A stretch of 64,000 nt of DNA, taken from assembly GCA_951406725.2 (NCBI GenBank), contig OX597818.1, forward strand, positions 64,418,001 through 64,482,000, given 5' to 3'. A model generated the notes under the pieces. The model ran no database searches. It worked only from the letters and a program-made list of their open reading frames with translations, and had not been told where the DNA came from. Source of the DNA: Octopus vulgaris. Lineage: Eukaryota. A program made the translations under genes and the position numbers. Positions 3,130 through 51,945 of this stretch are shown in pieces; position 1 is the first letter of the stretch; every line of letters starts with the position of its first letter.

Positions 3130-3385
3130 GTTGGAATGTGCAAGCAAAAATAGCATAAGACGAAGTCAGGTGTGTAAAAAACTAACAGATGTATTAGTTT
3201 AACGTTCGGGTAGTGAGAAAGTCTTTAACGTTTCGAGCATACGATCTTCATCAGAAAGGAACACAGAAATAAGTAGAGAGGGAAAATAGAAAATATTTAG
3301 TGGTTAACGATCAATCATGGTGAATGCCGGACAGAAGTGGTCAGACAGGAGAGCTAGGAAGAAGGGGAGATAAAAAAGTAGTTTT
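3130..3385 (-). mobile_element. Short hammerhead-bearing repeat, family H (copy 1)
   Basis: Minus strand CUUU-CUGAUGA-A-GAUCGUAUGCUC-GAAACGUU-AAAG at 3223-3258; homologous to five other copies in the window. Confidence 0.7.
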
Positions 3386-4122
3386 AAAAAAAGTAGTTTT
3401 AAAAAATGATGCTTCCCAAATGATCACATTTATACTACGATACATGATAAAGTGATAAACGATACATGATAAAGCGATAAAGAATGTATCAAGTTATAAA
3501 CGACGTGAGAAATTCTATAATAAAATTTATTTATTTCATTTTTGCATCTAGTTTGCAATATTCTATATGAACATAAATCCTCTCATTGGATACATCGAAA
3601 TTTATCTAACTATAAGTAAATTCAAATATCACAACAAATTTTGTCGTAAATTATAGAAGCATATGCGAATCATAAATAAATTACTTACATGCCTGCAATA
3701 ATAGAAAAAGTCCTCCAAATCAAGCAGAAACGAAGCTACGTGATCAGGTGAAAGAAAAATAGTTAAATATACTAAAATCTCGGTTGTGGCTTTAGACGAA
3801 CGGAAAGGCAATATTTAAATAGAATGTTAAAAGACGTGTAAGACAATGAAACTGAAATGAATATCCTTTTATCAGAAGATTGTCTAACAAATGGAAGGGA
3901 ATTTTCATTGATATAATTAAAAGTAACAAGTAGATCTTAATAGTATTATAAAAGTAAAGTGATATATGCATTATTCAAAATCCAGACAATAAAAGATTGG
4001 AAAAATAGAGAAAAATAGAGAAAACTAATAATAACTAACTGAAACAAGAGAAATATGAATAATATTAAATTAAATTGGCTTTTAGAAATTTGAATATATA
4101 AGTCAATATAAGTCAATATATA

Positions 4123-4615
4123 GGCGCAGGAGTGGCTGTGTGGTAAGTAGCTTGCTAACCAACCACATGGTTCCGGGTTCAGTCCCACTGCGTGGCATCT
4201 TGGGCAAGTGTCTTCTGCTATAGCCCCGGGCCGACCAATGCCTTGTGAGTGGATTTGGTAGACGGAAACTGAAAGAAGCCTGTCGTATATATGTATATAT
4301 ATATATATATATATAGATAGATAGATAGATAGATAGATGGAGAGAGAGAGAGATATGTGTGTGTTTATGTGTGTGTGTGTGTGTGTTTGTGTGTGTGTGT
4401 TTGTGTGTGTGTGTTTGTCCCCCTAGCATTGCTTGACAACCGATGCTGGTGTGTTTATGTCCCCGTAACTTAGCGGTTCGGCAAAAGAGACCGATAGAAT
4501 AAGTACTGGGCTTACAAAGAATAAGTCCCAGGGTCTATTTGCTCGTCTAAAGGTGGTGCTCCAGCATGGCCGCCGTCAAATGACTGAAACAAGTAAAAGA
4601 GTAAAAGTAAAAGTA
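4123..4615 (+). mobile_element. tRNA-derived SINE family A (CORE-like body, internal microsatellite), full length
   Basis: A-box-like GTGGCTGTGTGGT, B-box-like GGTTCAGTCC, CTTGGGCAAGTG motif, (AGTAAAAG)n tail; many homologues in the window. Confidence 0.9.
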
Positions 4616-5557
4616 AGTATACATGTAAATTGATTTTGAAATTTATGAAAGACAAGAAAAAACTTATATAAATTTATAATACAATTTTCTAAAATGAGAA
4701 GGGAGAAGTATTAAAATATTCATAAATAATTATTAGACATTATTGCTATGAGAAGAGGATAATCATATATTTACGCTTCATAGAGACAGAGTTTACGAAA
4801 TATAACGTGTGATATCAACAACAAAAATATGAACAACGTTAAAAGAAATATTAGGTGTTCAAATAAAAAGCAAAAAACAAATAGAGAATAAGTTGTTATA
4901 TAGGATAAGATTAATACAACTTAGTACTGAAAATTGGCGTAGATTAAAGTATATGAAATAAATATATGGAAAAATATGTCAATATGCATTCATTAAAATA
5001 TTGTACGAAAAATATAAATATTATTATAATAGAAGAAAAACTCAAAAAGATTTCCATACCTAAAATTCGTATAAACATTGTTAGTATACAAATAATTTCA
5101 AAATATGAATTACAATTATATTAAACATGGTGGAATTCACAATATAAATATTTCAATATTATTACTAAAATTAGAAATAATTACTTTTAGTAAGAAGTGA
5201 AATAGCAATAAACTTAAGGCAATAGACAATCATATATATATATATATATATATATATATATATATATATATATATATATATATACGTAGTTCAATTTCGT
5301 CATTGCTTTAAACCATTTTTTGTATTATTGTGTAATTCCAGATATGAAAGCCACTTATCTATTATGAAATATGCTAAAATAAATTAGGTATACATGCTTC
5401 AACTTTCGAAACAATTTGCCTCGATATTTGAAATTTATTATTCTTAAATAAATTTCATCGTGCTCTTACTCCCCTATATATATATATATATATATATATA
5501 TATATATATATATATATATATATACTATATTTAAAGCAGCAGAAAATTCAACAAAAT

Positions 5558-5595
5558 CTGTTGCTCTGAGTTTCTCGTTGCCGTTCATCAGACAG
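5558..5595 (-). ncRNA. Minimal hammerhead motif (U16.1 mutated, GCA triplet)
   Basis: CUGU-CUGAUGA-ACGGCAACGA-GAAA-CUCAGAG-CA-ACAG. Confidence 0.6.
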
Positions 5596-48393: not shown

Positions 48394-48723
48394 TATATAT
48401 ATATATATATATACATATATATATATATATATATATATATATATATATATATAGTTTGATATCCCGAATAAGAGGAAATAAACAGACACAATAAAAAAAA
48501 TGGATTTAGATATTTATGTGTGTGTGTGTCTGTCTGTCTGTCTGTGTGTATGTGTGAGTGTGTGCGTGTGTGTAATATACATTAGTTGTGTCTGTTTAGC
48601 TATCAACGCTATTTTATGTTCCCACTACTTAGTTGTACAGTAAAAAGAAAAAAATCTCGTGGCGGGGGTGATTCTTTCAACTAAATATTTTTCATTGTTT
48701 TCAGAAACACGCAATGGATTATA

Positions 48724-49262
48724 CAGTGACCCCTCGTCTGTCGTGGGTGTTATGTTCCAAAATTCCCCGCAATGGGTGACAATCCACGAAGCAGAAATTG
48801 TACTGTACTCTAAATTTTTCGTTATTATTATCTTTATAATTTGTATGTATTCATTTCATCATATATACAAAACAACACCACATACTCGCCTCCGGAGTTT
48901 CGTTTTCCATACAGTATATGCGAATCTTTGTTTACTCCTTTACGTATTTTCTCTTGATATATTTTAATTAATGTGTTATGCAAAGCAGTATTGAACAGTA
49001 TTGTTATTTATTAACTTATTCATTTTTAGTTGTGGAAATGCACATTTTACCACAGAAATAATTAAAATCTAAAATATATGTAAATACCTATCGGCTCCAG
49101 AAACCCGCGATATAATGAGAATAAATTTAGACACACATAAACACACGCACACACACATATGTATATATTTATTAGCGATATAAATTAATATATATTAGCC
49201 TGAAAAAACCGCGATGTACTGAGGGCGCAATAAGGAACCCGCGACGTTGCGAGTGATTACTA
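48724..49262. mobile_element. Tigger/pogo-like MITE
   Basis: TA-CAGTGACCCCTCG ... CGAGTGATTACTA-TA with repeated CCGCGA subterminal motifs. Confidence 0.62.
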
Positions 49263-51775
49263 TATGTATATAAGTTCATATATATATACATATATATTAG
49301 GGTGAAGAAAAACGTTAGGCAGTAACTTAGATAAATATTTGTAAGAGTAACAATAGAATAAATTAGGAAATACAGCAAGTGGAGCAAATATGATTTGGTA
49401 GCTGAAGGCGACATTGTATATTTGTGATTATGGAAATAAGATTTCAATTGAAAAACTAGTTGTCAAATAAAGGATATTATGAGGTGAATACATTTTAGAT
49501 AGACAGGAGATCGATATCGATGAATAAGTGTCAGAGGGAAGCATTAAGATGAAGAATGTCAGGAGGCAAGCAGAAATGTTATAGCTTGAACTTGTGATAT
49601 ACTGACAAAGGAAGAACAGATACTCAGAGGTATTAAAATAATTTGTCGAGAAAGACCCTAACGAAAAAGGGTCGACGGCTTCGGCAGTAAAGCCCTGATG
49701 ACCAAAACATTAAGATGTTATCATCACATTTCCAATGAAGTCCTGCATGTAGTCATGCATCAGCCCGCAGCTTTCCGCATCATAGATATTCATCGCATGC
49801 TTATCCTCTTCCTTCGGTCAAATAATCTTTACTGGGCCTTCCTCTGGTTTGGCGCAGCAGCTGCGGGTTAGAATTTGATTCATGTAGAGTTTCAGAGACT
49901 CAATTCCAGCTTCGAGAATGCAGAATGGTAGACACAGGACCGTCAGTGATGCGGGGCACTGGTGGATCTGCTCGGCCGCACGCACGGAGACACCTTTGAA
50001 ACCGCTGACCAAGGATGACCCAAGCCACATCAAACAACTACAGAGAGTGTGTGAGAGACAGACAGAGAGAGAGAGAGAGAGAGAGAAAGAGCGAAAGAGA
50101 GTGAGTGTGTGTGTGAGATAAAATGAGAGATTTTGGAAGAAATGAAATACTTCGAAATGGTACGTAAGATTCAAGAGAGAATTTCATGATGTTTTACCAT
50201 TTCATATTTTACAATCATCCAGTGAGACGAATGACAAGATTCCATTTTTATCGCTTTAACCCGGAAATTCTTTAAAAGATGCTACACAAAATATATTTAA
50301 TATCATTGTCTCCCTAGAAATGAATAAATCTAAGTCCTCGTTGGATATTTATAAATTAAATATAAGGAATAAAAAAAAACACAAACATTAGAAGATTTTC
50401 CAACATATTCCACTTTCAAACTGCAAAGCATTTCGGTTGTTTAAATAAGTATAGAATATTCTTTTTTTAATTAGAAACACTAAAAATCATTCAAAATATG
50501 TAACAATAGAGATTAAAGTGAAGAAACGGAATTTTACAAAAGCATTGTTGAATGGGAGCAATGACGAAAAAAAAAAAAACAAGATGTAAACAGGAAATTA
50601 AGAAAATATTCCATGGAAGATTGAACGATGGCAAATATAATAAGACTGAAACCCTTTTATATGAATACAAGACACATTTATATCTTTAACGTGAGCTCTA
50701 AAGAGGAAAAAGGAAGATAGAAAACAAAAGAGTGGTAGGATACACATAAAACCGTCACTAGTACTCTTATGAAATTGCTGCCCCTGTGGTGAAATTTGGA
50801 ACCGTTACATCACTTCAAAGTGATGCATTGGAAAGATGGTAGTGAATAGATTACATCTCTGACGTAGATCTTCAGTTTAAATCGATTGTATCAGCCCGAA
50901 TATATGACTGGTATATTTCTATCGACCACGAAAGAAATGCAGTGAAAGTCAACCTCTGCGGAATTTGACCGTTAATGTATAATTATTTTCGAAACTTAGG
51001 CACACGGTAAGAAGTTTCGGGGGAGGCGCTAAGTCGAATAAATCATCCCCAGTCCAGTCCTCAACAGATATTATTTTACCGATCCTAGAGGAGTAATCGC
51101 CAAGTCAGCAACGGCAAAATTTGAACCCATAACGTAAAGACTGACAAAATGCTACCAATGATTTTGTAATGCAGTATGATCGTTTCAAGCGATTCTATTT
51201 AATCGAAAAACGCAACCATTACATCAAATTAAATGCTGAGCAATCCTCAGCTGCATAAATATATAGAATGAAATTAAATTAAAACAGATGGCTACATTAA
51301 TAGAATTTTATCTAAAATCATTAAGATGGTAAAGAGTTAGACAAAGAACATGCTGTTTTCACTTCAGCTTAGAAGCTACTAAAGTATCAGGAAGAATGAC
51401 TTGTTAAAAATCTAGCTGGTTACTGTTTTTATTTTTGGGTCAGACTTGTTTATCAAATCTTTGTATATCAAAATATAAGGCCAAGGAACAAGGAGCAGTC
51501 TGTTTGGAAAGGGGCTGAGGGAGTCGACAGAAATCATAGTGGGTATAGTCATGAAATGATCAAGATTAATTTGAAGCAATATCATGAAATTTCGTAAAGG
51601 AATTTTAAATCAAGATGTTATCTCCCAGTTAAAGGGGCAAGACTCTAGCAAACCAATGTTGATAACGCAGGGGAAATTTTATCATGGGGTACTATAGTTG
51701 AATATTTTAAACGATTTGTATAAAGTTAAAATTTAGGGTTATAAAGAAGATTATTAAGAAGAACATTATATATAT

Positions 51776-51945
51776 AGTAGAAATTTACAGAAAAACAAAT
51801 TACGAAGACGAGTTTATAAACAACAAGCGGATGTATTAGTTTGACGCTCGGGAAGGTAAAAAAGTCTTTTACGTTTCGTGTCTACGCTCTTCGACAAAAA
51901 GGAACACGAGCAAATACAGAGAGAGAGAGAGAATAAAACGAGACA
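51776..51945 (-). mobile_element. Family H repeat (copy 6)
   Basis: UUGUCGA-A-GAGCGUAGACAC-GAAACGUA-AAAG at 51866-51901; 3' end abuts a short (TA)n. Confidence 0.65.

What the first reader, a model, noticed from the sequence alone, without database searches (positions are those of the whole stretch)
3130..51945. Family H: six copies of an ultra-minimal hammerhead with a non-canonical core (CUGUNGA plus an extra A)
Seen: cores read CUGAUGA (3223), CUGUUGA (23409), degenerate (34703), CUGUAGA (47670), CUGUCGA (48229) and UUGUCGA (51866), so four of the five readable cores have U at the normally conserved A6. All have an extra A before stem II (consensus GAGC-N4-GCUC), a stem III reduced to about ACGU, and stem I CUUU/AAAG. 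Known: an extra nucleotide between A9 and G10.1 is tolerated in natural hammerheads. Inference: either a functional natural core variant that needs dimerisation or protein help, or a family that keeps spreading after losing catalysis.
Basis: partly seen in the sequence, partly recalled or inferred. Interest (0 to 1): 0.7.

Follow-up and report, generated by a model that had tools for sequence, protein, structure and literature searches.

The report
Altered-core hammerhead in young Penelope retrotransposon
These six repeats are the tail ends of a very abundant, young Penelope-type jumping gene whose small self-cutting RNA motif carries a U in place of a normally essential A in about 99% of matching copies yet is otherwise preserved, so it is likely a deliberately weak, protein-helped ribozyme, although cutting has not been tested.

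Summary
Observation confirmed. The six copies are 5'-truncated 3' ends (pseudo-LTRs) of a Neptune-type Penelope-like retrotransposon (RT, CX4CxxC linker, C-terminal GIY-YIG; TA-repeat targets; partial tandems). The extra A and the ACGU stem III are the ordinary minimal-hammerhead anatomy of these elements. The unusual part is real: exact genome-wide counts give 15,153 U6 against 159 A6 (neutral control 105); 19 of 20 long-ORF copies have U6, none A6; U6 is the consensus of all six subfamilies. Across those subfamilies (flanks up to 33% apart) 0 of 30 constrained hammerhead columns change against 38 of 94 flank columns; only position 7, loop II and the cleavage-site base (A/U/C, no G lineage) vary, so the motif is not a decaying relic. 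U6 is predicted to pair with A15.1 and close the core. Best reading: an attenuated, dimer- or protein-dependent ribozyme (0.5); rival: dead but protein-recognised RNA signal (0.35). Cleavage could not be tested. I found no natural A6U hammerhead in the papers searched (Lunse 2017 unavailable). An unchecked scan note reports a family-wide core change in a sea-urchin Penelope element.

The parts
3130..3383 (-). 5'-truncated 3' pseudo-LTR end of family H (older subfamily 7), ends approximate
3223..3258 (-). minimal hammerhead motif, copy 1; A6 here, most likely a copy-level U-to-A change (subfamily consensus is U6)
23255..23546 (+). 5'-truncated 3' end of family H (subfamily 7), ends approximate
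23409..23444 (+). minimal hammerhead motif, copy 2, core CUGUUGA (U6 at 23416)
34606..34827 (-). 5'-truncated 3' end of family H (subfamily 3, the lineage that holds the youngest copies), ends approximate
34703..34738 (-). minimal hammerhead motif, copy 3, decayed core AUUUUGA (U6 at 34731)
47608..47795 (+). 5'-truncated 3' end of family H (A7 subfamily), followed by (TA)n, ends approximate
47670..47705 (+). minimal hammerhead motif, copy 4, core CUGUAGA (U6 at 47677)
48145..48394 (-). 5'-truncated 3' end of family H, ends approximate
48229..48264 (-). minimal hammerhead motif, copy 5, core CUGUCGA (U6 at 48257)
51777..51945 (-). 5'-truncated 3' end of family H (old subfamily 2), ends approximate
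51866..51901 (-). minimal hammerhead motif, copy 6, core UUGUCGA (U6 at 51894)

Best explanation
Family H is the 3' pseudo-LTR of a high-copy, young Neptune-type Penelope-like retrotransposon, and its minimal hammerhead has U at position 6 in every subfamily while the rest of the motif is conserved, which likely makes it a detuned ribozyme that would cut only rarely, as a dimer and with help from the element's protein. Shown: element anatomy, U6 fixation, conservation pattern. Inferred: copies end about 110 nt downstream of the predicted cut, at a TA-rich site of the element's own leader, so reverse transcription must copy through an uncut (or re-ligated) hammerhead; U6 is predicted to pair with A15.1 and shut the core into a rod hairpin, which would protect the template, while occasional protein-assisted cutting would still release unit RNAs from tandem read-through transcripts.
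For: Link to the ORF: walking 5' from the repeat reaches a GIY-YIG frame; L178 has a 1047-codon open frame with RVT_1 (E 1.3e-7) and a weak GIY-YIG hit (E 0.007, below gathering); partial tandems in L182 (1435 nt at 99.3%), L193 and L183; RT-region identity to L178 of 99.1-99.7% in the six closest other loci. U6 fixation: 15,153 U6 vs 159 A6, control U4-to-A 105; 28 U, 1 C, 0 A in the 29 of 30 endonuclease-selected loci that had a motif; 18 U, 1 A, 1 C, 1 gap among 21 core-covering copies in 1.0 Mb picked by position; 3 A6 in the first 100 of 1,351 G7 matches; A6 copies do not cluster within subfamilies. Selection: 0 of 30 constrained columns vs 38 of 94 flank columns differ among six subfamily consensuses, Fisher p 5e-6; the changes fall on N7, loop II and N17 (A, U, C); G17 plus C17 together only 168 exact matches, about half G; G17 impairs minimal hammerheads (PMC3884650, abstract). 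Rod: mean predicted G5-C15.2 pairing 0.67 in 127 natural U6 copies vs 0.09 in 30 A6 copies. Precedents: natural A6C variant keeps low activity (PMC3088659, PMC7151607, passages); the Anolis Penelope hammerhead cuts only with the element's protein and uncut RNA is the main template (PMC11167929, passages).
Against: No cleavage was measured or seen. Pairwise mutagenesis of a type III hammerhead found low activity for all changes in the CUGA turn except the C3-G8 swap (PMC9901934, passages), and PLE minimal hammerheads are already weak with a perfect core (PMC4209133). Invariance of position 6 alone is not significant (flank columns stay unchanged about 60% of the time), so U6 may be frozen rather than selected; the old subfamily 2 has 5 C6 and 2 A6 among 31 copies. 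Two flank blocks of 9 and 14 nt are also invariant, so conservation may reflect protein recognition rather than catalysis. The subfamily consensuses are related, so the Fisher test overstates independence. The rod is a thermodynamic prediction on 43-nt fragments (z -1.46) and has no covariation support.
Confidence: 0.5

Rival explanations
1. The motif is catalytically dead and is kept as a folded RNA signal (or DNA/RNA cis-element) that the RT-endonuclease protein binds; the hammerhead-like pattern of tolerated changes is inherited from the fold.
For: A6 is part of the conserved core and CUGA-turn mutants are low-activity (PMC9901934); U6 is predicted to close the core; none of the A6 revertants sampled forms a lineage; catalytic mutants did not affect insertion in vitro for the Anolis element (PMC11167929); other invariant blocks lie downstream; the younger part of sister family K also carries a weakening core change, U4C (10 C4 copies at 3.1% divergence vs 8 U4 at 6.1%).
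Against: All ten other core positions are invariant and N17 obeys the A/U/C rule across subfamilies, which a dead signal need not do; natural position-6 variants can cleave (PMC7151607).
Confidence: 0.35
2. U6 is a fully functional natural core variant, compensated by an unseen tertiary contact or by the dimer.
For: Long persistence of U6 while the linked endonuclease diverged to about 65% amino-acid identity in old copies (includes post-insertion decay); strong conservation.
Against: No compensating change elsewhere in the motif relative to the A6 sister family K; mutagenesis found no double-mutant rescue in this region (PMC9901934).
Confidence: 0.1
3. The motif is a functionless relic carried along at the 3' end.
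For: A core position is changed; no RNA evidence of cutting.
Against: 0 of 30 vs 38 of 94 columns changed among subfamily consensuses, while individual copies do decay inside the motif (3.1% per non-CpG site), so the region is mutable.
Confidence: 0.05

Closest known systems
Minimal hammerheads (min-HHR) in pseudo-LTRs of metazoan Penelope-like elements (Cervera and de la Pena 2014, PMC4209133; read parts 1-2 of 4 of the main text and part 2 of the supplement)
   Same: Type I topology, 4-5 bp stem I, extra nucleotide between A9 and G10.1, G10.1-C11.1, palindromic C15.2-G16.2 in place of helix III, location in the pseudo-LTR, mostly solitary truncated copies.
   Different: Their consensus is CUGANGAH and every row visible in the part of Fig. 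S3 that I read has A6 (their search descriptor demanded it); the core variant they report is U3-A8. Family H has U6 in all subfamilies.
Neptune-clade Penelope-like elements (as defined in Craig et al. 2021, PMC8557442; passages)
   Same: C-terminal GIY-YIG, CX2-5CxxC linker, CCHH motif, DKG motif, insertion into (TA)n, partial tandems.
   Different: The paper calls canonical hammerheads universal in these elements; here the core is non-canonical. Clade not confirmed by a tree.
Bcep176 A6C hammerhead (Perreault 2011, PMC3088659; Naghdi 2020, PMC7151607; passages)
   Same: Natural change at core position 6.
   Different: A6C in a single phage ribozyme with low Mg activity and Mn preference; here A6U fixed in more than 15,000 copies of an animal retrotransposon; activity unknown.
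Protein-assisted hammerhead of the Anolis PAc element (Frangieh 2024, PMC11167929; passages)
   Same: Pseudo-LTR hammerhead upstream of an internal RT start site; template copied through an uncut ribozyme.
   Different: Poseidon clade; no position-6 change is mentioned in the passages read; cleavage shown there, not here.

Membership tests
EN+ Penelope-like elements | Single ORF with RT and C-terminal GIY-YIG endonuclease | tested here: met
   RVT_1 E 1.3e-7; GIY-YIG E 0.007 (below Pfam gathering) with YIGQT visible. None of the 4 full-length copies translated from the ATG (L178, L182-184) is free of a frameshift.
EN+ Penelope-like elements | Pseudo-LTR / partial tandem structure, fixed 3' end, 5' truncation | tested here: met
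   L182, L183, L193 have an upstream truncated repeat joined to the leader; variable 5' ends.
Neptune clade | CX2-5CxxC linker and CCHH motif | tested here: met
   C-x4-C-x2-C before the endonuclease and CxxC...H...H around YIG in the translations.
Neptune clade | Insertion into (TA)n microsatellites | tested here: met
   3' ends abut TA or related microsatellites in nearly all loci.
Neptune clade | RT phylogeny places it in Neptune rather than Nematis | not tested
   No reference RT set was on hand.
PLE minimal hammerhead (min-HHR) | Extra nucleotide at 9/10.1, G10.1-C11.1, palindromic 15.2-16.2, NUH triplet, stems I and II | tested here: met
PLE minimal hammerhead (min-HHR) | Core CUGANGA (A6) | tested here: not met
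   U6 15,153 vs A6 159; so it is a hammerhead-derived variant, not a canonical member.
PLE minimal hammerhead (min-HHR) | Self-cleavage as a dimer | not testable with these tools
   No raw RNA reads were offered; the 5'-junction test was uninformative.
Rfam hammerhead families | Covariance-model hit | tested here: not met
   0 matches at E up to 10 on L178:5900-6150; none among the 150 of 223 window matches listed.

The most novel reading that the evidence does not exclude
A retrotransposon has converted its hammerhead into a protein-gated switch: A6U locks the core in an inactive rod that protects the template during reverse transcription, and the RT-endonuclease opens it to cut. It would be the first natural A6U hammerhead I could find, fixed through tens of thousands of insertions and invisible to CUGANGA-based searches, and a natural experiment on what Penelope hammerheads are for.
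Probability: 0.3. Interest if true: 0.7.

Novelty: new variant of a known kind. Interest (0 to 1): 0.5.

Why it matters
The role of hammerheads in Penelope-like elements is an open question (PMC8557442 calls it unclear and asks whether they merely parasitise the elements). Here a successful, young lineage keeps the whole motif under selection but with a core change that should cripple cutting. Either answer is informative: residual protein-assisted cutting would widen the natural hammerhead core and show tuning, and no cutting would show that the motif has a non-catalytic job in transposition. Natural A6 and U6 copies on the same background, and the A6 sister family K, make the test direct. 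It also implies that descriptor searches with a fixed A6 undercount these motifs.

Tried and rejected
1) 5'-truncation pile-up at the predicted cut: hand count of the first 100 rows listed gave 7 of 34 distinct family-H loci at the cut (9 with two mutated junctions) against 6 at a control TA site 14 nt upstream, and 6 of 33 for the A6 family K; TA microhomology explains both, so the test says nothing for or against cutting. 2) Sequencing runs: no RNA holder listed as such, only Logan contigs; laying 8 of the 23 runs showed no other letter at position 6 but also missed the known variation at position 7, so it has no power. 3) Idea that the oldest subfamily still has A6: rejected, 23 U, 5 C, 2 A, 1 gap of 31 when fetched without position 6 in the query. 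4) Idea of an A6 revertant G7 lineage: rejected, 3 of the first 100. 5) Idea that U4C in family K favours the same rod: rejected, pairing probability near 0 in 9 of 10 copies. 6) The first conservation test (1 of 30 vs 70 of 104) was discarded because a one-copy cluster inflated flank variation and A6-selected loci biased one consensus; one search drops that cluster, three outliers (L107, L238, L256) and family K, and ignores A6-selected copies at position 6. 7) Pfam found nothing on the 255-aa endonuclease piece. 8) Lunse et al. 2017 and one further hammerhead paper were not held; Arkhipova 2017 was not retrieved. 9) A homologue search was sent with wrong coordinates and not repeated, so other species were not examined.
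Full report
Observation. Five of six have U at hammerhead position 6, all six the extra A. The window lies in a 2.8-Gb animal genome, G000; that it is octopus-like is my recall from its repeat content and is also stated in unchecked scan notes, not tested here.

What the repeat is. The 30 closest genomic copies of copy 4 share a fixed 3' end followed by (TA)n and have variable 5' ends. A search with the 5'-most part of the longest copy gave copies that run on through a pyrimidine-rich 3' UTR into a frame with a C-x4-C-x2-C linker and YIGQT. 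A protein search of G000 with that endonuclease piece returned 150 scored matches, several in open frames of 600-1047 codons. I fetched 20 of those with long frames. L178 has RVT_1 (E 1.3e-7) and a weak GIY-YIG hit (E 0.007); the DKG, linker and CCHH motifs named by Craig et al. (PMC8557442, passages) are visible. L182, L183 and L193 are partial tandems: a truncated 3' repeat joined through a TA-rich junction to the leader, ORF and second repeat; in L182 the two repeats are 99.3% identical over 1435 nt. Six other loci are 99.1-99.7% identical to L178 over 1850 nt of RT, so the lineage is very young, although none of the four copies translated from the ATG is free of a frameshift. Family H is therefore the 3' pseudo-LTR of a Neptune-type Penelope-like element (clade by motifs, no tree). 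In 100 stretches of 10 kb picked by position there were 28 family-H hits, which extrapolates roughly to 50,000-100,000 copies; the last 20 stretches came from small chromosomes. A repeat annotation of an octopus lists recently active Penelope-like families and does not mention ribozymes in its main text (PMC13282606, passages).

What is ordinary. Cervera and de la Pena (PMC4209133; main text parts 1-2 of 4, supplement part 2 of 3) give the metazoan consensus CUGANGAH, stem II, GAAAN, palindrome, NUH. The extra A, short stem I and ACGU stem III are thus standard.

What is unusual. Exact genome-wide counts: U6 15,153, A6 159, and a control change U4-to-A 105. A6 copies are scattered over subfamilies and do not cluster, so most are copy-level mutations, including probably window copy 1 (only 3 of its 29 closest relatives share A6 despite an A6 query). 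Samples chosen without regard to position 6 agree: 28 U, 1 C, 0 A in 29 endonuclease-selected loci; 19 U, 1 C in 20 long-ORF loci (three overlap the former set); 18 U, 1 A, 1 C, 1 gap in 21 position-picked copies; 23 U, 5 C, 2 A, 1 gap in 31 copies of old subfamily 2; 97 of the first 100 G7 matches. A sister repeat, family K, has the same stem II but A6 in 18 of 19 copies.

Is the motif still under selection? From 252 core-covering copies, 229 family-H copies fell into six subfamilies by flank columns. Their consensuses differ by up to 33% in the flanks, yet 0 of 30 stem and core columns change against 38 of 94 flank columns (p 5e-6, columns treated as independent). The three changes inside the motif are at N7, the first base of loop II and N17, which takes A, U or C. 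G17 is at decay level genome-wide (168 matches for G or C together, about half G). Individual copies do mutate inside the motif (99 of 3212 non-CpG sites). Caveats: two downstream blocks of 9 and 14 nt are also invariant, and invariance of position 6 alone is not significant. Stem covariation is seen only between H and K-type copies: on 16 hand-picked natural copies 98% of cells pair and 2 of 8 pairs change on both sides, each probably a single event.

Mechanism. Shown: copies end about 110 nt 3' of the predicted cut, at a TA-rich site that continues into the element's leader in tandems, so the template must carry an uncut or re-ligated hammerhead. Predicted: U6 pairs with A15.1 and closes U4-U7 on A14-G16.2; mean G5-C15.2 probability 0.67 in 127 U6 copies against 0.09 in 30 A6 copies. 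Known: position-6 changes weaken but need not abolish cleavage (A6C, below 0.1 per minute, Mn preference; PMC3088659, PMC7151607, passages); CUGA-turn mutants are low and unrescued in pairwise mutagenesis (PMC9901934, passages); the Anolis element's hammerhead cuts only with its protein and is dispensable for insertion in vitro (PMC11167929, passages). I commit to an attenuated, dimer- and protein-dependent ribozyme (0.5) over a dead protein-binding signal (0.35), a fully active variant (0.1) or a relic (0.05). The genomic test for cutting (5' ends at the cut) was uninformative, since the A6 family behaved the same, and no raw RNA reads were available.

Novelty. Searches: hammerhead+Penelope+octopus, hammerhead+Penelope+dimer+catalytic core, small hammerhead variants, hammerhead+A6U/A6C, octopus+Penelope+Neptune, non-canonical core terms, mutational scanning, octopus+Penelope+cephalopod, Terminons/HHR. 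No listing or passage that I saw describes a natural A6U hammerhead or this family's motif. Lunse et al. 2017 (about small PLE hammerhead variants) and Arkhipova et al. 2017 could not be read, and supplements other than part of PMC4209133's were not seen; they, or Repbase, may hold U6 cases. Verdict: new variant of a known kind; interest 0.5.

Noticed in passing
L087:8650-8830 (+), L083:5700-5890 (-), L203, L306 and others: Family K: a sister TA-targeting repeat with the same stem II and canonical A6; its younger copies carry U4C (10 C4 at 3.1% divergence vs 8 U4 at 6.1%), a second core-weakening change. No ORF link was tested.
   Followed up: partly
L256:1400-1600 (-): A far-diverged relative of family H with identical stem II and loop but A6; single copy found by an A6 pattern, possibly a basal A6 lineage.
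   Followed up: no
L261:1588-1627 (-), L268: Two old-subfamily copies share C6 together with a changed start of stem II, hinting at a small C6 sub-lineage (clustering p 0.06).
   Followed up: partly
L121:1007-1045 (-): A K-type relative with a compensatory G-C to A-U change at the 10.1/11.1 pair.
   Followed up: partly
window 6249-6277 (+): Another hammerhead-like core (CUGAUGA, 6-bp stem II, GAAA) unrelated to family H; no stem I or III checked.
   Followed up: no
window 36224-36982 and 5528-5935: Long, 97-99% perfect inverted repeats (261 and 196 nt arms), MITE-like.
   Followed up: no
family H copies generally: Many copies of both H and K are truncated about 190-200 nt from the 3' end, a possible preferred stop of reverse transcription; not quantified.
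   Followed up: no
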